From a virus: DNA of 64,000 nt. This document shows, one piece after another, positions 34,508 to 58,226 of the stretch. The notes beneath the pieces are model-generated. The model saw only the letters and a program-made list of their open reading frames with translations, had not been told where the DNA came from and searched no databases. Position 1 is the first letter of the stretch; each line of letters begins with the position of its first letter. The translations under genes were made by a program, and so were the position numbers. The stretch spans positions 64,001 to 128,000 of the IMG/VR virus record IMGVR_UViG_3300028558_000018; one strand, written 5' to 3'.

Positions 34508-35854
34508 TTATTTCCCGACCCAGCCCGTATTACCCGCGCCAGATTCTTTAACATAAAGCGTAGTCGCCGCGCCACCATCAGTTCTTAAAAAAAGAGAGCC
34601 TACATTGGCCGTTACAACCGATTCGGGCGATCCTGTCCCCGTTTTAATAATGATTCCAGAGTTACTTATGTCTATCGCGCCGCCCGCCGCACTTGCGCCC
34701 GCAGAGGTGTTGATGGAGCCGCCTGCGCGGATGCCGTTGGCGGAAGTCGTGATGGAACCAGCGGCCCCGCCGACTGTATTTCCAGATGCAGCACCGCCGA
34801 CCATCAAAAGAGACCCGCCAATGCCGCCTGCGCCTCCTATTGCGCCTCCCGTTCCTGCCGCGCCGTCTCCGCCGTTTGATACGATTTGACCAGTGGCACC
34901 ACCAGCCCCTCCGGTTTCGCCTGCGTTTCCGCCAGCACCCCCAGAACCGCCAACAATAGACAAAGCGCCGTTGGTAAGTTGGCCAACTATACCGCCAGCA
35001 CCACCAGCGGCAGACGGTCCTCCCGCTCCACCATTGCCACCCCGAACGGTTATTGCACGAGCATTCGCACCAGCACCGCCTGCTCCGCCTGCTCCGCCCG
35101 CTCCGCCCGTGCCACCCCTGATAGAAAACGTGCTTGTTGCTCCGCCCGCACCGCCGTTGGCACCGCTTCCGCCTGCGCCGCCATTTCCGCCATAGACCGC
35201 AAGAGGGACCGATGCGCCACCCCCGCCATTGCCGCCATTTCCGGTGCCGGTAGCGTGATTAGCTCCGCCATTGCCGCTACGAACATCAACTGTTGGCGTG
35301 TTTGTCGATCCAACCGAACCAACCGTTCCAGAGCCACCTAGGTTTGCGCCAGCGACAGCCAGAGCGGTCTTCTGCACGACAAGCGAGTTAGCGGAAATAA
35401 GAACGCCACCGAGCGTCGCACCGTCGCCCATGTAAATGTATTTCGTGTCCGTCGCGTAGCCGAACTCACCCGAGGCCAGTGTAATGACCGCGAGTTCCGC
35501 CGCCGTTCCTTGGCGCACAATGACCTGAGCGGGGCCAGCGGGAGGCAGCACAACGTATCCGTTTTCGTTCGCGAGGTTCGCCAGATCGACTATTACATAG
35601 TTGTTTCCCGTCGCCGTGACTTGGACCAGTTGGCCTATTTGGGAGGGAGGGGAAACGAGGGCGAAACGAACCGTATCGTCTGCAACCACAGAAGCAATAT
35701 TAATCTTTAAATCAAGCCCAGATTTTAACCCTTGCGGCGTAATAGCTTTAGTCGTATCGGTCCCTATTACGGCTTCTCCAGTTGTAGCCAGTTGAATAAC
35801 CCCAATTTCAGTAATTGATGCATTAGGAATCGGTTCAAGAATATTATAGGGCAT
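34508..35854 (-). CDS. Glycine-rich (PGRS-like) tail fibre/adhesin
   Basis: N-terminal fibre repeat, Mtd_N-like RQGT...LASGEFGYATDTK..YMGDG, GGxGGxGG repeats, and C-terminal GTGSPE.VVTA.VGSLFLRTDGG...GW module. Confidence 0.85.
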   Translation of the reverse strand: MPYNILEPIPNASITEIGVIQLATTGEAVIGTDTTKAITPQGLKSGLDLKINIASVVADDTVRFALVSPPSQIGQLVQVTATGNNYVIVDLANLANENGYVVLPPAGPAQVIVRQGTAAELAVITLASGEFGYATDTKYIYMGDGATLGGVLISANSLVVQKTALAVAGANLGGSGTVGSVGSTNTPTVDVRSGNGGANHATGTGNGGNGGGGASVPLAVYGGNGGAGGSGANGGAGGATSTFSIRGGTGGAGGAGGAGGAGANARAITVRGGNGGAGGPSAAGGAGGIVGQLTNGALSIVGGSGGAGGNAGETGGAGGATGQIVSNGGDGAAGTGGAIGGAGGIGGSLLMVGGAASGNTVGGAAGSITTSANGIRAGGSINTSAGASAAGGAIDISNSGIIIKTGTGSPESVVTANVGSLFLRTDGGAATTLYVKESGAGNTGWVGK

Positions 35855-40980: not shown

Positions 40981-41165
40981 ATAAATTCATCTTATGGTTA
41001 TTAGTCCACCCTCATAAAAGCTGGCGCGGGACTAAATTGCAGTATGTAAAAGAGTGTTATGCGGAAGATTGTTTATTGGATAAAATATTTAATGAATATT
41101 ATTTTTTAAAGCTTAATTATTGGAGAATGAGATTTGTTTTGTGGATTATTAAAATAGCTGGATAA
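40977..41165 (+). CDS. Hypothetical protein
   Basis: ATGA overlap; last plus-strand gene. Confidence 0.5.
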   Translation: MNKFILWLLVHPHKSWRGTKLQYVKECYAEDCLLDKIFNEYYFLKLNYWRMRFVLWIIKIAG

Positions 41166-41209
41166 GGGGGTTCCTACAATATGTGTCCCTTAATTGAGGG
41201 AATCAGTTG

Positions 41210-41346
41210 GAAAATATTTTCACCCGTGGATTTTTTCACCCCTCCTGTTTAGTTTTAATAGAGTTTTATATAGGATAAACATAGGGGAAGGAATAATCTT
41301 ATAAGGGAGATTTAAATTGAAAATAATTTACTCCCGTGGATTTTTT
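41210..41346. repeat. Direct repeat pair GAAAATA-N-CCCGTGGATTTTTT
   Basis: Identical 14-mer at 41223-41236 and 41333-41346 (110-bp spacing), with similar upstream flanks. Confidence 0.8.
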
Positions 41347-41458
41347 TAATCTTGTAAGTCGTTGTTTGAAATGAAAATGGGTGAGAATTTGATGCGCAAT
41401 ACCCCCGCCCGCCAGAAAATTTTTACGATTGTAAATTTTTTTATAAACAGGGTGCCTC

Positions 41459-41480
41459 GCTATATACAAATGTATATAGC
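41459..41480. repeat. Perfect 10-bp inverted repeat with a 2-nt spacer
   Basis: GCTATATACA-aa-TGTATATAGC. Confidence 0.85.
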
Positions 41481-41619
41481 CACTATATAGAGCCTATACA
41501 CACAAGCACATAGCGAAACACGCAAGCTTAGACTATCACTAGCGGAATAATATAAAGGCGAGAACTAGCACTAGAGCAATGGCAATTTCCATTTGAGCGC
41601 ATAAGGTCAGAGGGTTAAT

Positions 41620-41650
41620 GAAAAAGGCGCAAGGGGTTAGCCTTGCGCCT
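41620..41650 (-). terminator. Strong rho-independent terminator closing the early region
   Basis: Minus strand AGGCGCAAGG-ctaacc-CCTTGCGCCT followed by TTTT. Confidence 0.85.
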
Positions 41651-41672
41651 ACGTTAACCTAACGCCTTGCGC

Positions 41673-42194
41673 TTACTCAACGTCAAGAGCCTTGCGCACG
41701 CTGGCAAGGTTGACGCCGGACTCTCCGCCAATCATGGCGGCAATCGCGGCGGCATCTTTGCCCTCCTTCTTCATGGCGCGCCCCTTTTCCTGCATGACCT
41801 GCGAAAGGTCGGAGAACGAGGGAAGCGAGGGGCGACCCGCGCCCGACTTGCCACCGAGGGAGAACGCGCCGACAATCTGACGGAACCCGTCGTCAAGCGC
41901 GGTTTTGACCTGCTGCGCGCCGTCACCGTGAGCGGCGTTGAAGGCCTTGCGCGCACCATCCAACGCGGCTGCGCGGTAAGCCTCGGGGATGGCGTCGAAC
42001 GGCTTGGAATCGAAGACGGGGACTTTGATACCTTCGACATGGGAAGCGAGGGCACGGAGGGCGGCGGCGGGCGTCTTGCTCGCGCTGGCATTGTAAACGG
42101 TGCTGACAACGGCGGCAGGCTTGGCGGGCGTCTTCTTGACGGCGGCAGGCTTAGCGGCGGACTGAACAGGAGCGGACGAGGTGACATTTTCCAT
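41673..42194 (-). CDS. GC-rich Ala/Lys-rich putative DNA-binding protein (173 aa)
   Basis: Likely start MENVT at 42194. N-terminus is PAK/PAA histone-H1-like; C-terminus is HTH-like (EGKDAAAIAAMIG..SGVNLASVRKAL). Confidence 0.7.
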   Translation of the reverse strand: MENVTSSAPVQSAAKPAAVKKTPAKPAAVVSTVYNASASKTPAAALRALASHVEGIKVPVFDSKPFDAIPEAYRAAALDGARKAFNAAHGDGAQQVKTALDDGFRQIVGAFSLGGKSGAGRPSLPSFSDLSQVMQEKGRAMKKEGKDAAAIAAMIGGESGVNLASVRKALDVE

Positions 42195-42309
42195 ATGATG
42201 AAAACCCCTTTTGGCGGGTAGGATTAAACCCAATTTTCTAACGGGTTAAGTTAAGACGCTGCAAACGCGCAGAGTCTTAAGCTAACCTCCCTCTTATGAG
42301 GGAAGGCTT

Positions 42310-42501
42310 TCAGATTTTAACAGGCAAAGAAGTAATCAACAGTTGCGCTTGTTTCGCTTCTGTAAGGTTGAATTCCGCCGTTTCGATGTCTCCAAAGTGA
42401 CAGGCTTTCTTCGCCTCTTTAAGGCAGTGTGATTTGTAAACCCGCAAAGCAGATTCCAAGGTTGACGCTTCTTCGTCGTTTAAGTGGTAAACGTGTTTCA
42501 T
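42310..42501 (-). CDS. Hypothetical early protein
   Basis: 63 aa with a structured leader. Confidence 0.6.
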   Translation of the reverse strand: MKHVYHLNDEEASTLESALRVYKSHCLKEAKKACHFGDIETAEFNLTEAKQAQLLITSLPVKI

Positions 42502-43357
42502 GTGGATTAAATAAGCTGCTAAGGGTCATTCCATAGAAGCTTAAGCTAATCTCTCTTAAATCGGCATAGCCATAGATTAAGAGACTTTAACTTTCTTTTC
42601 CTTGGCTCGCCTGCGCTGTTTCAGCCTAGCAGGGTCAAAGCGGGTAAATAGGTTTTTTGAAACCGTAAAAAAATATAGTGCGGTGCGGCGTGCCACCGAA
42701 AAGAACATCTAACCTTTCCCCACCTTAAGACATTGCTTTTTGAATTCAACTCAATTCTCGCTAATTCTTTTAGGCCTTTCCTAAGTGGTTGGCCTTTAAA
42801 CAACTTACAATTGATTAATTTTCCCCTCTTTTCTGTTTTCCCTCTAGTTGAGCGCACCGCCTAGTTGATTAGCTCCCTAGTTAACCCCACCACAAACAAC
42901 GAAGCGCGGCGCGTGCGCGAATATAGGGAAATTCAATTTTGTCAAAATATATCTTTGTAAAATTTTTGTAAAAATCTGGGGCGGCTTTTTTGAAGTCAGT
43001 CCCCTACAGCTAAAATATAATAGGGCTATAAAAACAAAGTCAATTTAAAAATAATTAATAAAAATAAAAAATAATTTGACAAATGGGGAAAAATAATAAG
43101 CGAAAAATAAAAATCTAATAGCATATAAAAGTTTTTCTAATAGCATATAGGGCATAATATAAGGTGAATATACTAATTGTAAAAATCCTTATATAATATA
43201 CTAAATTATATTAATTCCTTATATGATAATTGTAAAATAGTATAATTACCTCTATATAATAGTCTCGCGCCGGATATTGTCCTATTGAGAGCTTATACTA
43301 CCTCTCATTACCTCTATATTAACGTTTATTTGGCTATATTTTCTCATATTTGGACGC

Positions 43358-43390
43358 AAAAAATCCGCGAAGGAATTAACCCTCGCGGAC
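43358..43390 (-). terminator. Terminator after the endolysin gene
   Basis: Minus strand TCCGCGAGG...CTTCGCGGA followed by TTTTTT. Confidence 0.8.
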
Positions 43391-43414
43391 TATTAAGTGT
43401 TTATTATTAACTAT

Positions 43415-44215: not shown

Positions 44216-44320
44216 GATAAACCTTAATTTATTGATATTTAAGTAATTGGCCAATCAAAATGATTAATCTATTACAATGAAGACACTAACAAATTGTTAC
44301 GCTAGGTCAATTTAATTATA

Positions 44321-44509
44321 TCAATAATAAATCGGCGCGGTGTTTCCAACCCATCGCGCATTTACCACAATAATTGCATGATTTAAAGTGAGATTACGAG
44401 ATGATGCAATATATTGAATAATTTCCTCTTTGGAATAAAGCGATTTTCTCGCCCATTCAATAAATTCACTTAACCCATAAGTGGAAATGTCTATTAGAGA
44501 TAGGGACAT
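44321..44509 (-). CDS. Hypothetical early protein
   Basis: 62 aa with its own promoter. Confidence 0.55.
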   Translation of the reverse strand: MSLSLIDISTYGLSEFIEWARKSLYSKEEIIQYIASSRNLTLNHAIIVVNARWVGNTAPIYY

Positions 44510-44562
44510 AAAATAATTTGATTTAGCTCACTTTAATAGATTGTCACATAATGTCAATATCT

Positions 44563-44958
44563 TTAAATAGCAAAATATTTTTTAAATCCTTCGAAAGATT
44601 TAATATCAATATTGTCTTCAAAAGCATATTTACTAAATAAACATTGCTTTTCACCTTGGAATACTGAATAGGAGGGAATTTCTATAATTCGCAACGTCGC
44701 CCCGCCAATATCCAATAATTCCTCAACCGCTCCTATTGGAAACCAATTTAACAATTGTTCAAAAGAAGCAAACCCAAATAGAAAATTATTATTACCAATT
44801 TTATTATAATGCGGGGTCATTCCTTTATCGTTCATTGGCGAAGGGGTGTTTGGAGAACGTATTAAATCAAAATTTTCCATTATTTGGTCAATATATTGAT
44901 TTACACCCCTTGCTTGATAAATTCCCTGACTTTGATATTCAAAACGATAAATTTTCAT
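44563..44958 (-). CDS. Conserved phage early protein (IYR...G.Y...P.P..D...FGF.S.EQL..WF family)
   Basis: Motif pattern recalled from many phage early genes; near-leaderless promoter. Confidence 0.65.
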   Translation of the reverse strand: MKIYRFEYQSQGIYQARGVNQYIDQIMENFDLIRSPNTPSPMNDKGMTPHYNKIGNNNFLFGFASFEQLLNWFPIGAVEELLDIGGATLRIIEIPSYSVFQGEKQCLFSKYAFEDNIDIKSFEGFKKYFAI

Positions 44959-45337
44959 TTATTGAAATTTATCAAATTGTGGCGCGCCGTCAATTTAATT
45001 TTAACAAGTTTAAATCTAACTAATAACCCCCTATAATCCCCCTTAGTGTTATTACGAAAAAATTCGCGAGCAAATAAAGAATAAAATTAAATAAAAACTT
45101 ATTGACTTAACTATTCAACTATGATTCATTATATTCATGGTGAGTAAGGTTCAATCCTGAAAGCGATTTGCGGGTTAAAACCTTAGAGTGGGGCACCAAA
45201 CCGTGCGCGGATTCCTAAAATCGGCCCGCGATTTAAGAACATTTGGAAAATTATAGCATAAAAATTAATATTGTGTCAATTTAAATCAATTATTTTTAAT
45301 TAAAATTAATTCACGTTAATTGATTAATTCCGCGCAC

Positions 45338-45366
45338 AAAAAAGCCGCAAAGAATAATCTCGCGGC
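45338..45366 (-). terminator. Rho-independent terminator
   Basis: Minus strand GCCGCGAGA...TTTGCGGC followed by TTTTTT. Confidence 0.7.
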
Positions 45367-45383
45367 GGATTAACTAAATTAAA

Positions 45384-45908
45384 TTACTTATCGTTGACTT
45401 TAATTGATTTAACATTCCATGAGTCAATTAGGGGCTTAATTATCTTATTGAGGTAATTCTTTTGGAATTCATTCAATGGGGTCAAACTCGCGCCCAAATC
45501 TTCCCTCAATTGTTTATTTACTGCATCTAAATCGCCCTTAATAAACAATCCCCTATATTTAGCTCTTAATTCAACTAATTGTTTAAATTGTTTATTTGCG
45601 CCTAATCTATCGGTAATTAACGGATCATAGTCTAAATCATTACGAATAATCTTATTATAATATTCGCGTTTATAAGCATTTATTTTAATTTTACTATTAT
45701 CACCTAATTTATCAATCGGATAATGATATATCTGTTCATTAACCAAAATAGTAATAGAATCAATTTCAATTGAGAGCAATTTACCATTAATTTTTTCACC
45801 TAATTGATTTTCCCAAGTGGAATTAGTTTTTGCGTCAACTATTTGCGGCGCAATATCTTGCGCGTGAATAATTCCGGCCAAAAACAAAATTAAAAATGAT
45901 TTTCTCAT
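45384..45908 (-). CDS. Secreted protein with an SHD1-like domain
   Basis: Signal peptide MRKSFLILFLAGIIHA-Q; TWENQLGEKINGKLL....ITI......YPIDKL is the SHD1 pattern. Confidence 0.65.
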   Translation of the reverse strand: MRKSFLILFLAGIIHAQDIAPQIVDAKTNSTWENQLGEKINGKLLSIEIDSITILVNEQIYHYPIDKLGDNSKIKINAYKREYYNKIIRNDLDYDPLITDRLGANKQFKQLVELRAKYRGLFIKGDLDAVNKQLREDLGASLTPLNEFQKNYLNKIIKPLIDSWNVKSIKVNDK

Positions 45909-46622
45909 ATAAGAAGACTACTCAATTGATTTAATAAGTCAATAAAATTATAGAGGGATAAACACTAGGAAAGGATAACGAATAGATGATTAATTTTTAC
46001 AAACATTAGGTAAGACTAACATTTATAGGTAAGTAAAAGATTAATTGAGAAATGAAATAATTATTGAGGAATAAAAATATTTTTGAATAGATGAAAATTT
46101 TTGGGGGAAAATAAATATATGGGCACGAAATACCAAAATAATAACTTAATAATAAAATAGTAGTTAATCTTTCTCTTCATCCTCTCCTTATTCTTCCCTT
46201 ATCCATTCTTCTATGTTATCCCTATATATTAAACCATTACTTAATAAACAATTCCATAGTGGTAAACCACTATTAAATAGCTTATTAGCAATAACTTATC
46301 CAATAATTGATTAACTCTGTTTTAGTGCTTTTCTCAACTCTGTTTTTCAAGCTTTTCAACCTTACTTTTTTACGCTGTTTCTACCCTGTTTCCTTGGCGT
46401 TTAAAGCACTTTAAAACCTCACCCCTTGGCCTACCCTTACCAAGCGTTTCCCTCTCGTTTAAACGTGTTCTAACCATGCCTTGCGCGGTCGTTTTTAGAT
46501 ATAATTAGGGGATAATTGATTAATTGAGTGCAAATCCCTTTTAATGTGCTACTTATGGGGAAACAGAGCGCGGAATTGTTTGCAATTAGTTAATATTCAA
46601 TAGGTTAAATGAATTTAAACAC

Positions 46623-46650
46623 AAAAAATCCGGCCAAATTAATGACCGGA
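46623..46650 (-). terminator. Terminator after the vWA gene
   Basis: Minus strand TCCGGTCA...TGGCCGGA followed by TTTTTT. Confidence 0.8.
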
Positions 46651-46728
46651 CTTGGATTAGTTAAAATTTATTATCTATTTATAAGATATTCGCCTTTTAT
46701 ATGGTTTATCGGCTAATTGCCAAATCAC

Positions 46729-48078
46729 TCAATAGTTATTGAATTTAAAGATTTCACCAAACGGAGGCTTAAATGTAGAATTGTCTTCGATAAGTCCCCA
46801 CAAAATCGGGTAATCAGGAGAAATCTCGCCAAAGCTATTGCAATACCCATCCGTTAAAATAATTGCGCCTTTAATATCTCCCAAATCATTATTGGCGATA
46901 TATTTAAAGATTTCTTTATAATCGGTGCCGCCGCCACCTTTAGGCAAGGGCTTAATATCGCTATTAGGTTCAAATACTTGAATATTTTGAATAATGGTGT
47001 CAAAATAAATTACGGTTAGCTCGTAATTATCTTTACTCACGTTTTCCAATATATTGACGGCCTCATTAACCATATTAGTCACGTCGCGCAAATTGACGCT
47101 CCCACTTGTATCTATTGCAATGACGATTTTCCCTAATTCCTGACTAAATAGTGTCGGCAAAATAATTCCGCGCCCCAAATGACGTTTATTTACGTGACTA
47201 AATGAATAATCTTTAGCGCAATTTTCGCAAATAAAACGATTCAATATCTCTTGCCAATCAAATGAAGGCTTTTGACCATTTTTGATTATCTCAATTAGTC
47301 CATTGCTAGGTAATTTGCCCGCCATTTTCGCTGCATTTTCCGCCAATTTAGATTGAACCTTGGTCAATTCCTCAATAGAATCATCAATGGGAGCTTTAAT
47401 TTCACCAAATGTTTTTGGCTCGCCATCATTTGACTCATTTTCTTCACCATTATTAGATTCACTTGAATCGCCAGAATTATCGCCGGATTCGTCGCTATTT
47501 TCTCCCTTATCGCCCTTCGATTTATCTTGTTTATCGGATATATCAGATTTATCGCCTTTATCAGCTTTTTCATCCGATTTCTCGCCTTTGCCGTCTCCCT
47601 TTTCCTTGGATTTGTCACTCTTTTGTTTATTCTGGGAATTTTGCTTATTCTGCTCCTCTTTCTTTTTATCCTCTTCAATTCCCAAAAGACGATAAATATC
47701 CTCTGCGGATTTGCCCGTATATTTAACATCAATTAGGACGCCTTTTGGGAGAATAAATCCTGCGCGAAGCAATTCACCATTAAGCGAATAATCCGTGGCA
47801 TAATTCCAACGCTTAATTTCTTTTCCCTTCATCCGCCCCAAATGATTTGCGCATAAATGACAAACTTCATGAGCGAGAACTCCTTTAATTTCTTGAATAG
47901 TGAGGGAATCAGCAAATTCGCTATTGTAGAATAAATGTTTACCATCTACGCAAAAGGTAGGGTTATTCGTGGAATTGTCTTCAATAATCTGTTGCTGCAA
48001 AATCATTGAAGCAAAAAACGGATTATCGAAAATTAACGAATTAATTGCCGCCTTAACCTTTGGGTGATTAACATTCAT
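46729..48078 (-). CDS. DUF2201-type HEXXH metallopeptidase-like plus vWA domain protein
   Basis: LAHEVCH..NH, WNYATDYSLN, low-complexity K/D/S/G linker, MIDAS IDTSGS...GGGTD...LTDG. Confidence 0.88.
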   Translation of the reverse strand: MNVNHPKVKAAINSLIFDNPFFASMILQQQIIEDNSTNNPTFCVDGKHLFYNSEFADSLTIQEIKGVLAHEVCHLCANHLGRMKGKEIKRWNYATDYSLNGELLRAGFILPKGVLIDVKYTGKSAEDIYRLLGIEEDKKKEEQNKQNSQNKQKSDKSKEKGDGKGEKSDEKADKGDKSDISDKQDKSKGDKGENSDESGDNSGDSSESNNGEENESNDGEPKTFGEIKAPIDDSIEELTKVQSKLAENAAKMAGKLPSNGLIEIIKNGQKPSFDWQEILNRFICENCAKDYSFSHVNKRHLGRGIILPTLFSQELGKIVIAIDTSGSVNLRDVTNMVNEAVNILENVSKDNYELTVIYFDTIIQNIQVFEPNSDIKPLPKGGGGTDYKEIFKYIANNDLGDIKGAIILTDGYCNSFGEISPDYPILWGLIEDNSTFKPPFGEIFKFNNY

Positions 48079-48170
48079 ATGCTATTTATCCAAGCTAACA
48101 GAAAAACCCGCCGCGTCAATTTAAAATTATTTAGATTTTAAAAATTAACGGGCGGGTAATTGGCTCTAAA

Positions 48171-49169
48171 TTATTGAATCACATCGGGATTTTTAACAGC
48201 CCAGCGAACAAATGCCGCCGATTCTTTTAAATCAGGATTGCGGGTAATGATGCTATTAACCATAAATGCGCAATATTCTTGAGGAATGCGCTCGCCATAT
48301 GCGAAAATATTATCAATATTCATTCTATTGCATTTAACTGAAAGGCAGGATAATACCGAATAAATAACATCCGGCGCGCTTGGAATATCGGCAGTCATTG
48401 GATTTGCGAGAATTTGCGCGGGCAAATTACCAATATTTTTAAATGTGCGATAAAATGCCATGAATTCTACGGCGAATCCCTCTCCGACCGTGCCTTTAAA
48501 TACTTCCAAATCAATAATGCCGGCCTGAATCCACTTAGAAAGATTGTAAACTGTTCGCGGACAAGCGAAATTCTGAATTTCTTTTGACGCCGTGAATGTA
48601 TTAAGGAGTGCGGGCTTGAAATTGATAAATGAAATCAATTCCATCGGCAATCCCTTGTTCATTGCCCAGCTAATCCAATCATTAGCGCAAATTTCCATTT
48701 CAAATATGCAAAAGCGGGAAATAAGCGGAGTAATTAGTGAACCAACGCCCGCATTATCTTTACGGGAATTTGTCGCGGCAATAAACGAAACATAATCGGA
48801 AATTCTCTTCCCATTAATTTCTCGCGCTTGTATAAGTTGTTGACAGGCAGCTTGATTTGAAAGATTTGCCTGTCCCAAATCATCAATAAGGACAACTAAT
48901 TCCTCTTTAGTTTCCATCATTTCACGCAAATCACCATAAGGAATAAAATCGGCGGTCAATTTACCATTAATTGTCCCGCTAACCGGCAATCCCTTAAAAT
49001 CAGTGGGATCGCTCATAACAGGATGCAAAATCATGAATTTATACCCCATTGATTTAACAATAGAGGCAATCATTTCTGATTTACCAATTCCGGGCGAACC
49101 AACTAGCAGAATATTGCTTTTATCTTTAATAGCAATAGGGAGAACTTTGGCCAGCATTGACGGTTTCAT
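48171..49169 (-). CDS. MoxR-like AAA+ ATPase
   Basis: GSPGIGKS, DPTDFKGLP, VLIDDL, IAATN, LISRF, FACPRT. Confidence 0.9.
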   Translation of the reverse strand: MKPSMLAKVLPIAIKDKSNILLVGSPGIGKSEMIASIVKSMGYKFMILHPVMSDPTDFKGLPVSGTINGKLTADFIPYGDLREMMETKEELVVLIDDLGQANLSNQAACQQLIQAREINGKRISDYVSFIAATNSRKDNAGVGSLITPLISRFCIFEMEICANDWISWAMNKGLPMELISFINFKPALLNTFTASKEIQNFACPRTVYNLSKWIQAGIIDLEVFKGTVGEGFAVEFMAFYRTFKNIGNLPAQILANPMTADIPSAPDVIYSVLSCLSVKCNRMNIDNIFAYGERIPQEYCAFMVNSIITRNPDLKESAAFVRWAVKNPDVIQ

Positions 49170-49276
49170 ATAATATTTAATAGTTAAGGTTTATCTAACT
49201 ATTCATAGCTTGCCACAAAATAAATCTTTCGTCAACAAAATAAAATCTAAGTTTTTAAAAATTAAATAGGCAAAAT

Positions 49277-49311
49277 AAAGGGGAATAGCTCACCATTTAG
49301 AACTATTCCCC
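49277..49311 (-). terminator. Hairpin/terminator
   Basis: GGGGAATAG...CTATTCCCC followed by TTTATTTT on the minus strand. Confidence 0.6.
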
Positions 49312-49319
49312 TAAATCAA

Positions 49320-50261
49320 TTAGGCCATAAAATCCGCCATAAGCGAATTAATATCTTTCAACGCATCCTTCGCAGTAATCAGCGCGGAATTACGAACCTT
49401 TTCGCTATCGCGGACACTTGCCGCGTCAATTGTGGAAATTTTCTTCGCAACGCTATTGAAAATCTCATCAATTTTCGCATTATCGAGAATATTCAGTTCG
49501 CGAGACTGGTTGATTTCCTCAATAACGTTTTCCAAAGCCGAATTATGGAATTTACCATCGGAATCAATCAAACGATTAACCAAATGATTGAGCGATTCCC
49601 GCGCCCGCTCCATAATATCAATTTGCGTTTCTTTAATTGACGATTCAATTCGCGCCTCAATTTGCGAATTAATATCGGCCAAATCTTCTTTACTCAAATA
49701 TCCGCTTCGATAATCGTTAGAAGGGACTGGCGAGACAACAATTTCCGCTTTAAATGAGTGGCGGAATTCGTCATAAGTGGGATAATCCGCCTTATTGAAC
49801 AAACCCCCGAGCATTTGCCGCTCATTAGCATAATCACTGGCAATCGTATCGGCATATTCCTGAATTGAATCAGCAACGGCGATATAAAAGCTGCCAATTA
49901 GCTGTTCCAATTCCTGTTTTACCTTAATATAATTTTTGGTCGAGCAAATACGCTCACCATTATTATTCCACGGCGCGCTCAATTCATATAAACGAAGGCG
50001 CAATTTCTGTGAAGCAGAGGAAACCGCACGATTCTTTTTGGATTTAAGCAGGGATTTCCAAACCCGAACATTGTTAATATCGCAATTTTCGTCTTTGGAA
50101 ACGTCATTTGTCACGCGCTTATCTTTACGAGTGCCGGAAAATTGGCTAATTTGCACGCTAATTAGAATAGCCTTTTCGCAAAGGGTTTTTCCAATTCGGA
50201 TATTATTCTCGGTAATATTTTGAGCAATTACCGGAATTTCGCTTTCAATTTGTTTGGTCAT
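49320..50261 (-). CDS. DUF3150-like protein, partner of the MoxR/vWA genes
   Basis: ISVQISQFSGTRKD..., APW...GERI, LGGLFNKADYP...F; usual position before AAA and vWA genes. Confidence 0.65.
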   Translation of the reverse strand: MTKQIESEIPVIAQNITENNIRIGKTLCEKAILISVQISQFSGTRKDKRVTNDVSKDENCDINNVRVWKSLLKSKKNRAVSSASQKLRLRLYELSAPWNNNGERICSTKNYIKVKQELEQLIGSFYIAVADSIQEYADTIASDYANERQMLGGLFNKADYPTYDEFRHSFKAEIVVSPVPSNDYRSGYLSKEDLADINSQIEARIESSIKETQIDIMERARESLNHLVNRLIDSDGKFHNSALENVIEEINQSRELNILDNAKIDEIFNSVAKKISTIDAASVRDSEKVRNSALITAKDALKDINSLMADFMA

Positions 50262-50387
50262 TCGATGAATTAGTTAATGGTGATTTAATCTTTACAATTT
50301 AGAATCTACCACAATTTAGCTCTTAGTCAAATAAAAAATATTAAGTTTTTAAAAATCTTAAGCGATTAATTGCTGCTCAAATAATGT

Positions 50388-50636
50388 TTACTCAAGATAA
50401 ATTTCAACAAAAACAAAAGTCGCGTTATCTCTGGCGGCATATCCTTTAATTCGGATAATATCACCGAAAAACACTTTGGGTTCGTAAATTGTAATAAGAG
50501 AAGACTCTTCGTTATTAACTTCCCAAATTTTCAAATAATTATCTTTTTCGGAATGAGTCGAGAAAATATCTTTTCCAACCATTCCGTCGAAAGAATTGTC
50601 TTGAGTAATAATATTGCGAATTTTATAGTTTTTCAT
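50388..50636 (-). CDS. Hypothetical early protein
   Basis: Own promoter. Confidence 0.55.
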   Translation of the reverse strand: MKNYKIRNIITQDNSFDGMVGKDIFSTHSEKDNYLKIWEVNNEESSLITIYEPKVFFGDIIRIKGYAARDNATFVFVEIYLE

Positions 50637-50707
50637 GGTTAATTTGATTTAGCTCTACCTTATAGATTAGTTGCGCGCCGTCAACTTAAATTTTAAAAAC
50701 TTAATAA

Positions 50708-50896
50708 TTAAAATGGCAAAATCAATTCTTTAGCTTTATCAAAATTATTTTCTTCCACGCTAATTTCGTAATTAGTCCCGCCATATCCATTGCCAATACT
50801 CAATGATTCATACCAAATTTGGTTTTTAATCAAAATATCGCCAATTTTCATGGCTTTATATGGATCATGAGTTACGAATAGAATTTTTGTTTTCAT
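50708..50896 (-). CDS. Hypothetical protein (DUF2007-like pattern)
   Basis: C-terminal YEISVEENNFDKAKELI. Confidence 0.55.
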   Translation of the reverse strand: MKTKILFVTHDPYKAMKIGDILIKNQIWYESLSIGNGYGGTNYEISVEENNFDKAKELILPF

Positions 50897-51131
50897 AATA
50901 ATTAAAATATCTCATCGCCCTTTCCAATAATTCAATATCTTTTTCCTTCAATACTAAATTAGCCGCGCAATCTTTAATTGTGGCAAATGTTACAGTGGAA
51001 TTAACGGGGTGAATAATGCCCTGTTTGGGATTGTTTAAAGGTATTAACAAATTAAACAAATGCAACTTGGTTTTGAGAACCTCTTCAAATGGCGGAATAA
51101 ACCCAATATATTTTGCAATTGGCTTATTCAT
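50865..51131 (-). CDS. Hypothetical protein
   Basis: Early cluster ORF. Confidence 0.5.
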   Translation of the reverse strand: MNKPIAKYIGFIPPFEEVLKTKLHLFNLLIPLNNPKQGIIHPVNSTVTFATIKDCAANLVLKEKDIELLERAMRYFNYYENKNSIRNS

Positions 51132-51301
51132 ACTTGAAAATAAGCATATTTAGAACAGAGCGTAGAATTAAATATCTCGCGAACAATCCAATTCTCGTAT
51201 TTAGATTCTTTTAGCTCAGGATTATCACAAGCAAATTTGAATTGCGCGTTATTTGGCACATTATCACAATCAAACGGTATTTGCATCGTGCCGCGGCGCA
51301 A

Positions 51302-51499
51302 TTATTTATTAGCTTCATAATCACACATTTCAATGGCCCGCTCTAATTGGTCAGAATCTTCATCTGGATTATCAAAATTCCCAATCACAATTGCATGAGT
51401 TAACCCATTTTTGCGCACTTCATAATGGCCAATGCTAATTTTATAAACATAATGGGAATTATTAGCCGATTCGTGAACGATATTTGATTCTTTATTCAT
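51302..51499 (-). CDS. Hypothetical protein
   Basis: TAATTTATG junction. Confidence 0.55.
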   Translation of the reverse strand: MNKESNIVHESANNSHYVYKISIGHYEVRKNGLTHAIVIGNFDNPDEDSDQLERAIEMCDYEANK

Positions 51500-51502
51500 A
51501 AA

Positions 51503-51784
51503 TTAAAGTTTAATATCAGGAGTTTTAAACGGGTGCATAAATTGCGCAATAAACATCGGCATTATCCAATAGAGAAAATTTTCGCGGGTTTTCCCCACAT
51601 AGTTCATACTTTGATGAATCAGTCCGTAATCATCGTCATATCCAATATAAAGCTGATAAGTAGAATGAAAATCTGGCGACGAATATAAAAATCCATTAAG
51701 CGTATCACGGGTTACATAACACAAATCATTATCAATTGTGAACCAATCGCCGCGTTTAAGATTTTTAATTTGAGTAATATTCAT
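51503..51784 (-). CDS. Hypothetical protein
   Basis: Early cluster ORF. Confidence 0.55.
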   Translation of the reverse strand: MNITQIKNLKRGDWFTIDNDLCYVTRDTLNGFLYSSPDFHSTYQLYIGYDDDYGLIHQSMNYVGKTRENFLYWIMPMFIAQFMHPFKTPDIKL

Positions 51785-51790
51785 AGTTAA

Positions 51791-52072
51791 TTAATGATTT
51801 GCGTAAAATTTGGCCGCGAGCAATAGCGCGCCGTAGAATTCGACTTTATCGCTGAATATTTGGAGAGTCAAATCCCCTTCGCAATATGTGAATATAGAGC
51901 TATCGCTAATATTAATCCACACTTTACGATAGGGATAATCACAAAAATCTCCTTCGATTACCCAATTGGGGTCGAGTTTAAATTCATTTTTCCAATTAAG
52001 AAAGCCACGATAAAATTTACAATTTTCGCGAGGTTCTTCTTTAAGCGAACCGAATTGTTCAAGAATATTCAT
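51791..52072 (-). CDS. Hypothetical protein
   Basis: Early cluster ORF with a TYCEGD motif. Confidence 0.55.
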   Translation of the reverse strand: MNILEQFGSLKEEPRENCKFYRGFLNWKNEFKLDPNWVIEGDFCDYPYRKVWINISDSSIFTYCEGDLTLQIFSDKVEFYGALLLAAKFYANH

Positions 52073-52094
52073 AAATAGCTAAAATTCGTCCTAA

Positions 52095-52310
52095 TTAAGA
52101 TTTATTCGCACAACGGGCAATCGCCCCTTCCAAATATTCCCGTTCCTTCAGAGATTTATTCAATTGCGCTTTAACCAACTCAATTTCCCCTGCCGGAACT
52201 TTATATCTACCTTTAGCAAAAACTGCCAAAGTTTGCTCGCAATCATTGATAATTTTGTTAAGTCGGACTAATTCGCCCAACGTGGTAGGTTCTGAATTGT
52301 GAATTTTCAT
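52095..52310 (-). CDS. Hypothetical protein
   Basis: Own promoter. Confidence 0.55.
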   Translation of the reverse strand: MKIHNSEPTTLGELVRLNKIINDCEQTLAVFAKGRYKVPAGEIELVKAQLNKSLKEREYLEGAIARCANKS

Positions 52311-52361
52311 ATATTTATTACTCCCTCAACCTATATTATTGCGCGGCGAAGTCAAATTAAA

Positions 52362-52640
52362 TCAATTAAAAATTCTATCAATAGGTGCTAGTCCATAAGT
52401 AAATTTGCCCTCGCAAATTTCATCTTCTCCATCAAATTTCACATCACAAATATCGGGATAAATCCAATTCGTGTTATATTGTGAGCGATAACCATAACGC
52501 CTAATTACCGTCGCGAGGCGCATTGTTTTGGCTAATGGGGTTTTAATATCATCAATATATTTGCGCGAATCAAATGCTTTGACGCGGCAATTTGGGATAA
52601 TTTTCCAATGCCAAGGCTTTAATAGGGATAATTCGTTCAT
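52362..52640 (-). CDS. Hypothetical protein (SH3-like)
   Basis: Early cluster ORF. Confidence 0.5.
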   Translation of the reverse strand: MNELSLLKPWHWKIIPNCRVKAFDSRKYIDDIKTPLAKTMRLATVIRRYGYRSQYNTNWIYPDICDVKFDGEDEICEGKFTYGLAPIDRIFN

Positions 52641-52643
52641 AAA

Positions 52644-52979
52644 TTAATGTTTCCTTAACTCAATCATTTTCAACCATTTATACGCCATTGCAGAGCGTTT
52701 TTCAGGGCCAATTACCGTCCCCGGATTTTGGCAAATTTGCATCAAATAATCTACTAAATCATTACGTTTTCTTGCTATTCTAACCAATTCAACGGTATTA
52801 TGCACCGCGCAATCATTTTCCTTTGTGGGCATTCCATAATTACCATGAGGAATTAATGAATTAATATTTGGCTTAGTGTCTTTTTTAAAGGGTGTCACCT
52901 TATTGGATAGCATTTCCTTAATAAACTTCGGGGCGCGGTAATAAACCCAGAAATCAATATGTTGTTGGGTAATTTTCAT
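52644..52979 (-). CDS. Hypothetical protein
   Basis: Early cluster ORF. Confidence 0.55.
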   Translation of the reverse strand: MKITQQHIDFWVYYRAPKFIKEMLSNKVTPFKKDTKPNINSLIPHGNYGMPTKENDCAVHNTVELVRIARKRNDLVDYLMQICQNPGTVIGPEKRSAMAYKWLKMIELRKH

Positions 52980-53210
52980 TATTTACTATTTTCGCGCTTA
53001 AATTCTTCCATGCCGCAATTAAATCCGTCCTGCCAATCATCATATTTGGATTTAGACGAGATAATATCATAAGGATTAGGGTAAATTTCGCCCTTAATTC
53101 CAAATTTATAACCGTTAAAATATGCCGTGGCGTTTACAACTTGTGATGCAGATTTCATAAATTTGATTTCTCCTAGCTTGATTTAAAAGTCGCCCGCTGT
53201 CAAATTAAAT

Positions 53211-53516
53211 CTAATATAAAGATTCCGAATATAATGTTTTGGCACCACCAAAATTTTCAATTATTTGGTTATTCAATTCCGCGATAACATAAGCCTCTTC
53301 GCGATTCAAAAATTTGCCAAATTGATCCACAAAACCCTGTTCTTTAACCCTCAAATGATAAGGTTTAATAATATAATGACCAAATATTTTCAATCCTCCA
53401 CTGTAAATTCTCTTTAACGTCGCCCTCATTTCGGGACTATAATGCCGCACGCCTGTAATTATTGCGCCGTCATCCATTAGCATAGCAGCACAAACGATTC
53501 TTTGGGGAGGTTTCAT
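53211..53516 (-). CDS. Conserved phage protein (IVCAA...G.RH...EQGFVDQ.G.F..REEA..IA...LYSE.LY family)
   Basis: Widespread phage motif; near-leaderless promoter. Confidence 0.7.
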   Translation of the reverse strand: MKPPQRIVCAAMLMDDGAIITGVRHYSPEMRATLKRIYSGGLKIFGHYIIKPYHLRVKEQGFVDQFGKFLNREEAYVIAELNNQIIENFGGAKTLYSESLY

Positions 53517-53548
53517 TAACGAAAACTCTAATCAAAAGTCGCGCCGAG

Positions 53549-53752
53549 TCAATTTAATTCTACTTTATTAAATCCAAAAGCTAGAGCATCTTGCGCGAGA
53601 ATTATTTGAGTTAATGCTTTAATATAAAGGACTCCTTTATGGCTAATAAATTCGTAGTCTTTATTAAAGATAAACCCCGCGTTGCTAAAGAATTGGATGA
53701 TTTCGGCTTCGGATTTGTTCTCGGGCAAGGAAATAACACTTTTAAGTTTCAT
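53549..53752 (-). CDS. Hypothetical protein
   Basis: Packed operon. Confidence 0.5.
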   Translation of the reverse strand: MKLKSVISLPENKSEAEIIQFFSNAGFIFNKDYEFISHKGVLYIKALTQIILAQDALAFGFNKVELN

Positions 53753-53755
53753 AGA

Positions 53756-53968
53756 TTATTCCTCGGTTTGCTCGAAAATAATATTTTGTCCAGCGTGTTC
53801 TCTAAAATGCTCAAAATCCCTAAATCGCGGCAAATTATCATGCTCGCGCATATTATTGATTGTCCAGAGCAAATTTTCCTCTTTGGTTTCCATTTTATTC
53901 TCGTTTACATAAATAGGACTAATTGAACCCATTGAGGGAATAAAGGGAATATGGGCGATATAGTTCAT
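53756..53968 (-). CDS. Hypothetical protein
   Basis: Packed operon. Confidence 0.5.
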   Translation of the reverse strand: MNYIAHIPFIPSMGSISPIYVNENKMETKEENLLWTINNMREHDNLPRFRDFEHFREHAGQNIIFEQTEE

Positions 53969-53971
53969 AAA

Positions 53972-54181
53972 TTAATAAGCGCGGATAAACAAAATTCCTT
54001 CCCAATCTTGAACCAAAGTTGCTTTTTCGATCTTATAATACTTATTCCCATCGGTAATCAAAATTGGCGTATTTGTAGAATAAAGTTGCAAAGCTTTGTG
54101 TCGGGTAATGCTTTTGACAAAAACCATAGGATATTCAATGAGAAATCCCGCATCCAAACAAATTTCAAGTTGTGTTTTCAT
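53972..54181 (-). CDS. Hypothetical protein
   Basis: Packed operon. Confidence 0.5.
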   Translation of the reverse strand: MKTQLEICLDAGFLIEYPMVFVKSITRHKALQLYSTNTPILITDGNKYYKIEKATLVQDWEGILFIRAY

Positions 54182-54184
54182 AAA

Positions 54185-54376
54185 TTAATCAATTTTTGTT
54201 AATTGGTGCGGCGAGTAATTTTCTTTGATATTCCCCAACCACCGTTTGATTATGTGAGTATCCTTACTATTATCTATTTCAACGACAACTTCGCCCATAA
54301 AGGTAAATCCCTTAATCGTTCCGGTTTCACCTAGATGAGTTTTCACCCTATCTTTTTCTTTAAAATTGTGGTTCAT
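54185..54376 (-). CDS. Small SH3/KOW-like protein
   Basis: FKEKDRVK....TGTI.....VVVEID. Confidence 0.55.
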   Translation of the reverse strand: MNHNFKEKDRVKTHLGETGTIKGFTFMGEVVVEIDNSKDTHIIKRWLGNIKENYSPHQLTKID

Positions 54377-54426
54377 AATTTATTACGTTCTCACTCTGTA
54401 TTATTTGCGGCGCGTTGTCAAATTAA

Positions 54427-54612
54427 TTAAACGTAAAATCTATTGTGAACTTTGGGGCGGCGAAACGATTCTTTAATAACCTTATTGCCCCAATAAGCGG
54501 CAATTTTATCCCAATAGCGTTTTCTACGTTTATTTTGCGCTCGTTGAAAATTATCCTCCGCGCAATAAAGCTTATTCATCAGCCTATTGAGGTTATTTTG
54601 TTTATTATTCAT
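54427..54612 (-). CDS. Hypothetical basic protein
   Basis: Likely start MNNKQ. Confidence 0.5.
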   Translation of the reverse strand: MNNKQNNLNRLMNKLYCAEDNFQRAQNKRRKRYWDKIAAYWGNKVIKESFRRPKVHNRFYV

Positions 54613-54613
54613 A

Positions 54614-55090
54614 TTAAACGCTTTGAGAGAGAATTTTGTTAAAATATGCCTCATCCCGCCATTCACTCACTAATTTGAACTTATCGTAAAAATTGCGCGG
54701 CGAAAAATAAACAATTACGCCATGTTTATTAGGTTTGGCGCAGAAATAATCATGAGACTTAATAAAGCCTTTTTTAGTGTAAATCCCGCACTCGATATTA
54801 AACTTATGGCGATAGGGTTTATCGTTAAGCAAACTAACACAATTAACCTTATTAAACTCTAATTCTACCAATCGGGAATCACTGGCATTTCCAACTATTC
54901 CAGAAGAACAACTGGATTCGGCGCAATATTTAAAATCCCAATAATATTTATCATTCGCCGTCCAATCCACAATAAGGAATAGCCAATTATCGGGAGTTTT
55001 ATGCAATGAATAATTGGTAAACTTAAACCCTGTTTTGAGAGCTTTATTTAGGCCCAAATTGGGAATAGAAGCGTATGGGAGAATTTTCAT
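54614..55090 (-). CDS. Hypothetical protein
   Basis: 158 aa directly after the tRNA. Confidence 0.55.
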   Translation of the reverse strand: MKILPYASIPNLGLNKALKTGFKFTNYSLHKTPDNWLFLIVDWTANDKYYWDFKYCAESSCSSGIVGNASDSRLVELEFNKVNCVSLLNDKPYRHKFNIECGIYTKKGFIKSHDYFCAKPNKHGVIVYFSPRNFYDKFKLVSEWRDEAYFNKILSQSV

Positions 55091-55100
55091 TATATTAAAG

Positions 55101-55191
55101 TGGTGCGCATTCTCGGACTTGAACCGAGACTTTATTTTTTAAGTAAAAATGGGGTTTAAACCCATCGTGTCTGCCATTCCACCAAATGCGC
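55101..55191 (-). tRNA. tRNA-Leu(UAA)
   Basis: Acceptor GCGCATT/AATGCGC-A-CCA, D-arm GGTGGAATGGCAGACAC, anticodon arm ATGGG-TTTAAAC-CCCAT, long variable arm, T-arm CTCGG-TTCAAGT-CCGAG. Confidence 0.95.
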
Positions 55192-55206
55192 AAAATTGTT
55201 TATTAA

Positions 55207-55389
55207 TTATTCTTTAATTGAATAATATTGAGTATGTGAGATTCGCCCCACGTCAAAATCATATTCCCAATTAGCTCTTACCGCGTCGTTCCATTTAAGA
55301 AATTGTCCACTAATAGAGCATTTAATTTTAATATTCGCAGATGGTTCATCTTCGTTAACTTGAAAAATCTTAATTGGTCGGCGGCTCAT
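55207..55389 (-). CDS. Hypothetical protein
   Basis: Early cluster ORF. Confidence 0.45.
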   Translation of the reverse strand: MSRRPIKIFQVNEDEPSANIKIKCSISGQFLKWNDAVRANWEYDFDVGRISHTQYYSIKE

Positions 55390-55404
55390 TAGGTAGGACG
55401 ATAT

Positions 55405-56409: not shown

Positions 56410-56583
56410 AAATTAGCCCGCGAAAGAAGTGTCAATTTCAAGATTTTCCCCACCGACAATTACCGCGACGACGCCCTTTTTAGTGACGAATTCCTGCGCG
56501 GCATTAATATTATCAAAATACTTGGCCCAAAGCATTTTACCAGTTTTATCGGACCAAATTACTGCATATTTGAAGTTCATAAA

Positions 56584-56931: not shown

Positions 56932-56932
56932 A

Positions 56933-58225: not shown

Positions 58226-58226
58226 A

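What the first reader, a model, noticed from the sequence alone, without database searches (positions are those of the whole stretch)
41620..42600. Host-optimised pre-early cassette: GC-rich H1-like/HTH protein with duplicated structured leaders
Seen: the 173-aa gene is about 60-65% GC by eye in a genome of about 35%, and a strong terminator follows it. Both it and the 63-aa gene upstream share a leader element (plus strand CTTAAGCTAACCTCCCTCTTA at 42276-42296 and CTTAAGCTAATCTCTCTTA at 42540-42558). Each copy links two hairpins, including an imperfect stem of about 18 bp at 42244-42287. Established: T7 early mRNA is cut at RNase III stems between genes, and its first product, Ocr, counters host restriction. 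Inference: the first-expressed, most abundant protein, translated without needing the phage tRNA, coats or protects incoming DNA or neutralises a defence system. This is a candidate new anti-defence or nucleoid-like protein.
Basis: partly seen in the sequence, partly recalled or inferred. Interest (0 to 1): 0.72.

Follow-up and report, generated by a model that had tools for sequence, protein, structure and literature searches.

The report
GC-rich phage DNA-binding gene cassette
An AT-rich 144-kb freshwater phage carries a self-contained gene cassette for a new helix-turn-helix DNA-binding protein whose GC-rich codons and hairpin-rich mRNA leader recur in its few known relatives, which points to very high expression, though its role is unknown.

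Summary
A 173-aa gene (41673-42194, minus strand) has 64% GC and GC3 0.75 in a 36.9% GC phage, the strongest outlier of 215 ORFs. A terminator follows it, and it shares a duplicated twin-hairpin leader with an upstream 63-aa ORF.

It is not a recent host insertion. About ten relatives exist, on phage-like or very short metagenome contigs. Those examined are GC-rich against AT-rich flanks. Their synonymous sites are saturated yet stay GC-rich, so the bias is actively maintained. Its codon shifts parallel those of the probable capsid and decoration genes (r = 0.75). It uses none of the three codons read by the phage tRNAs.

The protein has a disordered tail, a helical hairpin and a C-terminal three-helix HTH of resolvase/GcrA type. 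The H1-like tail is not conserved. Leaders are structured across the family, and one subgroup has a covariation-supported four-hairpin 5' UTR that matches no Rfam family.

'Host-optimised', 'HTH' and 'structured leaders' hold up. 'Pre-early', RNase III processing, DNA coating and anti-defence remain untested. The long stems are specific to this phage.

Best reading: an abundantly expressed DNA-binding protein made from a non-late promoter. Other readers of this scan noted the same stretch on this genome.

The parts
42904..42972 (-). Promoter block of the cassette. It holds TTTACA-N17-TATTTT (42972..42944) and TTGACA-N14-TATATT (42945..42920), then a 16-nt GC-only stretch CGCGCACGCGCCGCGC (42919-42904).
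   Evidence: The consensus scan found the first site. The block is unique in the genome. It is almost identical in L003, whose protein is only 49-51% identical. No late-type TTCMM-N15-GKKTAW site lies in 41000-43400. A terminator at 43391..43362 closes the upstream lysozyme unit.
42743..42767 (-). Three direct GAATT repeats at 10-bp spacing inside the long leader. This is a candidate protein-binding site.
   Evidence: It is the only such triple in the 144-kb genome. The same array is present in L002, and two repeats are present in L003. Its function is inferred only.
42505..42593 (-). Twin-hairpin leader in front of the 63-aa ORF. Hairpin A is at 42593-42543 and hairpin B at about 42551-42505.
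   Evidence: Inverted repeat I5, folds with z = -3.7, and alignment to the other leader.
42310..42501 (-). 63-aa ORF with uncertain coding status. A small ORF of 48-66 aa occupies this position in most relatives, but the sequences are not alike.
   Evidence: The ORF list. Its only database match is itself. Small ORFs in relatives are not homologous. L002 has no ORF there.
42195..42309 (-). Structured 115-nt leader of the 173-aa gene. Hairpin A is at about 42308-42284, hairpin B at 42287-42244 (17 of 19 arm positions paired by hand count), and a third hairpin GGGUUUAAUCCUACCC at 42231-42216.
   Evidence: Folds with z = -4.3 to -5.9. The third hairpin and the following CAAAAGG are shared with L002.
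41673..42194 (-). 173-aa gene with 64% GC. Residues 1-31 form a disordered Ala/Lys/Pro tail. Residues 42-110 are helical and may dimerise. Residues 132-170 form a three-helix HTH.
   Evidence: Composition, homologues, model with mean pLDDT 74, GcrA DBD match at Z 6.2, rmsd 2.0 A over 45 residues, and HTH_7 at E = 6e-4 for one member.
41620..41650 (-). Intrinsic terminator: a 10-bp stem followed by a T run.
   Evidence: A hairpin followed by a T-rich stretch also follows five of the nine homologous genes folded (L005, L006, L007, L010, L011).

Best explanation
The segment is the core of a self-contained transcription unit of about 1.35 kb. In order it has its own non-late promoter block, a long leader, an orphan small ORF, a multi-hairpin spacer, the 173-aa gene and a terminator. 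The unit looks built for very high output of one protein.

The protein belongs to a small unnamed family found so far only on phage-like or very short metagenome contigs. It probably dimerises through a helical hairpin and binds DNA through a C-terminal resolvase/GcrA-type HTH. The GC-richness is a maintained codon bias. It favours C-ending codons and has almost no A-ending codons. It is an exaggerated form of the bias seen in the phage's probable capsid genes, and it frees translation from the three phage tRNAs.

The 5' hairpins most likely stabilise the mRNA, control its translation, or both. Autoregulation is possible.

Shown here: the anatomy, the family-wide GC bias and its maintenance, the HTH fold, and structured leaders with covariation in one subgroup. 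Inferred: high abundance, dimerisation, DNA binding, early timing, and what the DNA binding achieves. I favour a global or nucleoid-type role or a transcription-modulating role.
For: Cassette limits: terminators on both sides and a promoter block conserved with L003. The promoter is not of the late type. The late motif gives 14 hits against 1.8 expected, none in 41000-43400. The cassette sits at the end of the leftward block that carries the TTGAC-type promoter array, 16 hits against 2.3 expected.

Family-wide GC bias: in nine loci the gene has GC 0.49-0.64 against flanks of 0.33-0.43. A-ending fourfold codons number 0-3 in six of the nine, and C3 well exceeds G3 in seven of the nine, the exceptions being L003 and L009. 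The rise in GC starts and ends within about 100 nt of the ORF boundaries.

Maintenance: at fourfold sites under identical residues, homologues share the third base in 0.39-0.52 of cases against 0.23-0.43 expected from composition. GC at these sites stays at 0.57-0.80 except in L003.

Link to expression: codon shifts correlate with those of the probable capsid and decoration genes (r = 0.75, 44 of 53 in the same direction). CAI ranks fifth of 167. There is no CAA, TTA or AGA.

Fold.

Leaders: z = -1.8 to -5.9 in all nine loci. In one subgroup four hairpins show 87% paired cells and 12 of 28 pairs with changes on both sides, against 0-6 in slid controls. The covariance model finds the L005 and L012 leaders in the right place.
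Against: There are no expression data of any kind, and the host is unknown. This gene prefers C where the probable capsid gene prefers T at fourfold sites, so the two biases are not identical. The promoter has an odd 14-nt spacer if TATATT is the -10 element. It does not fit the TTGACN-N16-TANNNT pattern of the early array, so its timing is open. L003 and L009 show a weaker bias. The covariance model does not recognise the window's own leader. Dimerisation could not be tested. The helical domain matches only generic helical hairpins at Z 5-6.
Confidence: 0.5

Rival explanations
1. This is a pre-early cassette next to the genome end that enters first. RNase III cuts its mRNA at the long stems as in T7, and its abundant product coats incoming DNA or blocks a host defence.
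For: The window phage has two imperfect stems of about 17 bp in the right places. The gene avoids every codon that needs a phage tRNA. The promoter is not of the late type. The window protein has a Lys/Ala/Pro tail.
Against: The gene lies at 105.7 of 144.4 kb in the record, and no terminal repeat was found. The convergent non-coding point is absent in L007 and L009, where a co-directional gene follows. Relatives have hairpins of only 5-12 bp. The basic tail is not conserved. Nothing in the sequence points to a defence target.
Confidence: 0.12
2. It is a sequence-specific transcription factor that switches the phage programme. It would resemble Mu Mor/C in having a dimerisation domain followed by an HTH. 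It might turn on the operon of the phage sigma factor or repress early genes, possibly with autoregulation at the GAATT array or the leader palindromes. High abundance would not be essential.
For: The domain order is helical hairpin, linker, HTH. There are weak hits to phage regulators and late activators. A conserved, genome-unique GAATT x3 array lies in its own leader. The phage has a two-stage promoter system with its own sigma factor.
Against: A specific regulator needs few copies, which does not explain the extreme, maintained codon bias. The GAATT array occurs only once in the genome, so no regulon is visible. Neither Pfam scan listed a Mor family model.
Confidence: 0.2
3. It is a late, virion-associated DNA-binding protein, such as an internal or DNA-condensing head protein. 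Its codon bias would then simply mark it as a major structural component.
For: Its codon bias resembles that of the probable capsid and decoration genes. It lies beside the plus-strand block that holds a head-protease-like gene and a scaffold-like gene.
Against: There is no late promoter in front of it. It is transcribed with the non-structural leftward block. The neighbourhood in L006, L007 and L009 shows few structural assignments.
Confidence: 0.08
4. The GC-richness serves a DNA-level role, such as a packaging, replication or recombination site. The protein would be the cognate site-binding factor, similar to a small terminase.
For: Large conserved non-coding regions with repeats flank the gene. 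Its size and its combination of an oligomerisation domain with an HTH recall small terminases. One member gives a weak small-terminase PHROG hit at E = 0.1.
Against: The GC rise is confined to the ORF. It is strand-asymmetric, with C3 well above G3, which fits selection on the mRNA rather than on duplex DNA. The large terminase gene is 17 kb away.
Confidence: 0.07
5. It is a recent horizontal acquisition from a GC-rich host or phage and has not yet drifted to the phage's composition.
For: The compositional jump is abrupt. The genome has a second GC-rich island near 10 kb.
Against: Homologues at 33-54% identity are also GC-rich in AT-rich contexts, and those on the 10.5-kb contig and L007 lie downstream of a lysozyme gene as here. 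Synonymous sites are saturated, so the bias is old and maintained. I found no cellular homologue among 1.8 billion cluster representatives or 185,579 species genomes. The two long proteins that scored are a TPR protein and a coiled-coil protein.
Confidence: 0.03

Closest known systems
GcrA DNA-binding domain (Caulobacter, PDB 5yiu) and resolvase-type HTH (Pfam HTH_7 / HTH_23)
   Same: A compact three-helix HTH of about 45 residues preceded by a G-R-P-x-L-P-like arm. The structural match has Z 6.2 and rmsd 2.0 A over 45 of 49 residues. There are weak HTH_7, HTH_23 and HTH_28 hits.
   Different: In GcrA the DNA-binding domain is N-terminal and is followed by a sigma-70-interacting domain. Here it is C-terminal, behind an unrelated helical hairpin. 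No GcrA or resolvase catalytic domain is present. Sequence identity is 18%.
Phage Mu Mor/C middle and late activators
   Same: A small protein with an N-terminal helical dimerisation part, a linker and a C-terminal HTH. This comparison rests on my own knowledge of the family. A 'Middle operon regulator' viral model appears far down the BFVD list.
   Different: There is no detectable sequence relationship, and neither Pfam scan listed a Mor model. Mor is not known for extreme codon bias.
Abundant phage or bacterial DNA-organising proteins (phi29 p6, SPO1 TF1, E. coli Fis)
   Same: The likeness is functional only. These are small, very highly expressed DNA binders. Fis also combines a flexible N-terminal arm, a helical dimer core and a C-terminal HTH, and its promoter has a GC-rich discriminator. 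All of this is from my own knowledge.
   Different: No homology was detected to any of them. Abundance and non-specific binding are not shown here.
T7 early-mRNA RNase III sites and 5' stabiliser hairpins such as the ompA leader
   Same: Intergenic hairpins precede genes in a multi-gene transcript. In the window phage, two imperfect stems of about 17 bp are long enough to be candidate RNase III substrates.
   Different: Relatives carry three or four short hairpins of 5-12 bp. The conserved feature therefore looks more like a stabiliser or translational operator than a processing site. No cleavage data exist.

Membership tests
Resolvase-type HTH (Pfam PF02796 HTH_7 and clan relatives) | Sequence match to the family model above the curated threshold | tested here: inconclusive
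   One of five members reaches E = 6e-4 for HTH_7. Others give weak HTH_28, HTH_23 and Sigma70_r4 hits. The window protein itself has no hit.
Resolvase-type HTH (Pfam PF02796 HTH_7 and clan relatives) | Three-helix helix-turn-helix fold of about 45 residues | tested here: met
   The model has helices at 132-143, 148-155 and 163-170 with pLDDT 80-90. The best solved match is the GcrA DBD at Z 6.2 and rmsd 2.0 A. The Atlas structure neighbours are HTH_7 and HTH_23 clusters.
GcrA family | N-terminal DNA-binding domain followed by a C-terminal sigma-70-interacting domain | tested here: not met
   The HTH is C-terminal, at residues 121-171. The Pfam scans list no GcrA model.
Histone H1-like / Lys-Ala-Pro-tailed nucleoid proteins | Conserved basic Lys/Ala/Pro-rich low-complexity tail | tested here: not met
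   The window protein has AAKPAAVKKTPAKPAAV in a disordered tail with pLDDT below 50. Seven of eleven family members start directly at the helical domain, and P0002 has a non-basic tail.
T7-type RNase III processing sites | Imperfect intergenic stem of about two helical turns | tested here: met
   The hairpin at 42287-42244 pairs 17 of 19 arm positions by hand count. A comparable 17-bp interrupted stem lies at about 42551-42505.
T7-type RNase III processing sites | Conservation of such long stems in related phages | tested here: not met
   Leaders of L002, L003, L005-L007 and L009-L011 contain hairpins of about 5-12 bp only.
T7-type RNase III processing sites | Cleavage by RNase III | not testable with these tools
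   This needs 5'-end mapping or an in vitro cleavage assay.
Any described RNA family (Rfam 15) | Match to a covariance model | tested here: not met
   The leaders of the window and of eight related loci gave no hit. The only rows were unrelated weak ones elsewhere, Hrs12 at E = 0.07 and MIR1888 at E = 0.07.
Small terminase subunit | Family model match and position next to the large terminase gene | tested here: inconclusive
   One member gives a PHROG small-terminase hit at E = 0.1. The weakly matching large terminase gene is at 23430-25298, 17 kb away.

The most novel reading that the evidence does not exclude
The family-wide package is a dedicated expression module that does not depend on phage tRNAs. 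It combines a maintained C-ending codon island, a multi-hairpin 5' UTR not described before, and a gene-specific promoter and terminator. The module would encode a new class of abundant phage DNA-organising or counter-silencing protein. Its 5' UTR would be a new cis-regulatory RNA that switches between a local hairpin and a helix masking the translation start region, possibly operated by the protein itself.
Probability: 0.2. Interest if true: 0.7.

Novelty: new variant of a known kind. Interest (0 to 1): 0.5.

Why it matters
AT-rich phages that carry tRNAs are thought to suffer a codon mismatch with their hosts. Here one gene family has escaped that mismatch. It has held an extreme, strand-specific codon bias through enough time to saturate its synonymous sites, so selection has marked it as a gene whose output matters greatly. 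Such islands could serve as a sequence-only way to find the key abundant or early proteins of uncultured phages. The protein is a new HTH family with no named relatives. Its 5' UTR is a covariation-supported RNA structure that matched no Rfam family. Both are concrete, testable objects in a phage group with no cultured member.

Tried and rejected
Searches that found nothing useful:
- Pfam, PHROGs and NCBIfam gave no family for the protein beyond weak HTH rows.
- Foldseek against PDB and BFVD gave nothing at E <= 0.001.
- The Atlas feature search gave no usable hit.
- There was no DNA or protein match in 50,697 phage records, for this gene or for the probable capsid gene.
- Pattern-based scans of IMG/VR, JGI metagenomes and GTDB genomes found no further relatives.
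- A 16-mer from the relatives' leader pulled 184 loci from two collections. None encodes a relative, so these are chance matches.
- P0006 and P0007 from the exhaustive search are a TPR protein and a coiled-coil protein, so those matches are spurious.

Tests with negative or empty results:
- The covariance model R1 did not find the leaders of the window, L002 or L003, even with filters off.
- A third genomic copy of TTAGCTTAAG, at window-equivalent 70057, has no twin-hairpin context.
- A long-range helix that would mask positions about -19 to -12 in the relatives' leaders pairs in every sequence. It is almost invariant, so it has no statistical support, with 313 of 500 shuffles as good.
I dropped it by inspection because the GTT and AAC ends are in the opposite order to attC.

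Attempts that failed:
- Host identification failed. Genes largely lack Shine-Dalgarno motifs (14 of 144). The glycosyltransferase block gave no strong family hits. Neighbouring genes in relatives have no Pfam hits.
- A homodimer prediction was requested five times, but the machine could not be reached. No result exists.
- Two literature searches gave nothing specific.

Full report
SETTING. The window is bases 64001-128000 of a 144,389-bp IMG/VR virus record estimated at 95% complete. Its GC is 36.9%. No terminal repeat was found, and most genes lie on the minus strand. In this record the finding lies at 105.6-106.6 kb. It is the last unit of a long leftward block, and it converges with a short plus-strand block that holds a head-protease-like gene and a scaffold-like gene.

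OBSERVATION.
- The 173-aa gene (41673-42194, minus strand) has GC 0.64 and GC by codon position 0.66, 0.51 and 0.75. The mean ORF GC3 is 0.34. It is the top GC3 outlier of 215 ORFs.
- A 10-bp stem with a T run follows at 41650..41625.
- The shared element is exact at the stated coordinates. It is part of a diverged duplication of about 70 nt.
- Each copy joins two hairpins. The 44-nt hairpin at 42287-42244 pairs 17 of 19 arm positions by my hand count. Both leaders fold much better than shuffled controls, with z = -4.3 to -5.9 for one and -3.7 for the other.

THE UNIT. A strong terminator at 43391..43362 ends the upstream lysozyme gene. After it comes an AT-rich stretch with several sigma-70-like sites. 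A promoter block at 42972-42904 follows and ends in a 16-nt GC-only run. This block is unique in the genome. It is nearly identical in L003, although the L003 protein is only 49-51% identical. After the promoter come about 400 nt of leader with a GAATT x3 array, the 63-aa ORF, the 115-nt hairpin spacer, the gene and the terminator.

The phage's late-type motif TTCMM-N15-GKKTAW gives 14 hits against 1.8 expected, and none lies in 41000-43400. The TTGAC-type array gives 16 hits against 2.3 expected and covers 44283-62203 on the same strand. The cassette promoter fits neither pattern exactly, so it is 'not late' rather than proven early.

THE FAMILY. An exhaustive HMMER pass over 1.84 billion cluster representatives found four true relatives at 35-55% identity. 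A profile search raised the family to about eleven members. The two long proteins that scored are a TPR protein and a coiled-coil protein. No relative turned up in isolated phages, IMG/VR or 185,579 species genomes.

Contexts are phage-like where the contig is long enough. The 10.5-kb contig and L007 both carry a lysozyme gene upstream, as the window does. L006 carries a ClpP-like protease, PhoH and a GIY-YIG protein. A small ORF of 48-66 aa lies 100-315 nt upstream in most loci, usually 100-140 nt. These small ORFs are not alike, the window's is an orphan, and L002 has none.

THE GC-RICHNESS IS MAINTAINED AND ACTS ON THE MESSAGE.
- In nine loci the gene has GC 0.49-0.64 against flanks of 0.33-0.43.
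- At fourfold sites under identical residues, homologues share the third base barely more often than composition predicts: 0.39-0.52 against 0.35-0.43 in eight of nine pairs, and 0.39 against 0.23 for the window-L003 pair. This holds even at 84% protein identity. Synonymous sites are therefore saturated, yet they remain 57-80% GC except in L003. This excludes a recent transfer.
- The rise in GC starts and ends within about 100 nt of the ORF boundaries.
- The bias is strand-specific. In the window gene the fourfold third bases are C 62, T 25, G 19 and A 2, and six of the eight relatives show a similar pattern.
- Relative to the genome background, its codon shifts correlate with those of the probable capsid and decoration genes (r = 0.75, 44 of 53 codons in the same direction). 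Its CAI on that reference ranks fifth of 167.
- The phage carries three tRNAs, reading CAA, UUA and AGA. The gene uses none of these codons in 22 opportunities, although they make up 84%, 37% and 30% of their families genome-wide.

'Host-optimised' is therefore a fair description. One caveat is that this gene prefers C where the probable capsid gene prefers T. The host is also unknown. Only 14 of 144 ORFs have Shine-Dalgarno-like motifs.

THE PROTEIN. The AlphaFold model has mean pLDDT 74. It shows a disordered tail at 1-31, helices at 42-54, 64-68, 71-89 and 92-110, a Gly-rich linker, and a three-helix bundle at 132-170. The best solved match for the last part is the GcrA DNA-binding domain, with Z 6.2 and rmsd 2.0 A over 45 of 49 residues. 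The helical part matches only generic hairpins. Weak HTH_7, HTH_23 and HTH_28 hits and the Atlas neighbours agree with an HTH. The domain order is the reverse of GcrA. The H1-like Lys/Ala/Pro tail is specific to this protein, and most members start at the helical domain.

THE LEADERS. All nine leaders fold better than shuffled controls, with z = -1.8 to -5.9. In L006, L007, L009, L010 and L011, four hairpins precede a nearly invariant unpaired stretch that ends at the AUG. On the alignment, 87% of cells pair and 12 of 28 pairs show changes on both sides. Slid controls give 0-6, and 0 of 500 shuffles reach the observed value. With only five sequences this is supportive, not conclusive.

A covariance model built from these five finds the L005 and L012 leaders in the correct place. 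It does not find those of the window, L002 or L003. No Rfam family matches. The window's long stems are therefore a lineage-specific elaboration of a family habit of hairpin-rich leaders. RNase III processing remains possible here but cannot be the shared function.

VERDICT. This is a real and unusual cassette. The functional story (pre-early, RNase III, DNA coating, anti-defence) remains conjecture, and the family comparison weakens parts of it.

I favour an abundantly made, probably dimeric HTH DNA-binding protein with a stabilising or translation-controlling 5' UTR (confidence 0.5). A specific programme-switching regulator is the main rival (0.2).

Noticed in passing
G000:C1:about 10000-10520 (outside the window, about 54 kb before its start): A second GC-rich island lies here. 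An ORF at 10061-10432 has GC 0.565 and GC3 0.63. By eye the opposite strand seems to hold two short ORFs, followed by a GC-rich hairpin.
   Followed up: no
window 41166-41620: This 450-nt non-coding convergent region holds elements conserved in L002 and L003. One is GGGGTATTGCGCATCAAATTCTCAC at 41405-41381 (-). The other is AAAAAATCCACGGG, present twice 110 nt apart at about 41347 and 41237 (-). Their role is unknown. L007 and L009 have a co-directional gene downstream instead.
   Followed up: partly
window 42743-42767 (-): Three GAATT repeats at exact 10-bp spacing. This is the only such array in the 144-kb genome, and it is conserved in L002 and partly in L003 and L007. It is a candidate operator.
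   Followed up: partly
window 43000-43200: A stretch of 20-24% GC upstream of the cassette promoter. It holds a direct repeat TATATGCTATTAGA x2, an 8-bp inverted repeat (GTCAAATT / AATTTGAC) around an A/T-only spacer, and several sigma-70-like sites.
   Followed up: no
L006, L007, L009, L010, L011 leaders (for example L007:6492-6624): The 5' arm of hairpin H2 (GAGU-GCAA) can instead pair with UUGC-AUUU about 12-19 nt before the AUG. This is a possible on/off switch. It pairs in all five sequences but is nearly invariant, so it is unsupported statistically.
   Followed up: partly
L012:233-310 and L012:630-756: L012 seems to carry two leader-like elements (covariance-model E = 0.002 and 0.011). 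This parallels the duplicated leader in the window phage.
   Followed up: no
G000:C1 45281-45354, 119101-119191 (window 55101-55191), 136662-136736: The three phage tRNAs, Gln-UUG, Leu-UAA and Arg-UCU, all read A-ending codons that are common in the phage. This fits a host poorer in these tRNAs.
   Followed up: partly
window 34508-35854 (-): A 448-aa Gly/Ala-repeat protein with GC 0.58. Here the high GC comes from amino-acid composition (GC2 0.61, GC3 0.48) rather than synonymous bias, in contrast with the 173-aa gene.
   Followed up: partly
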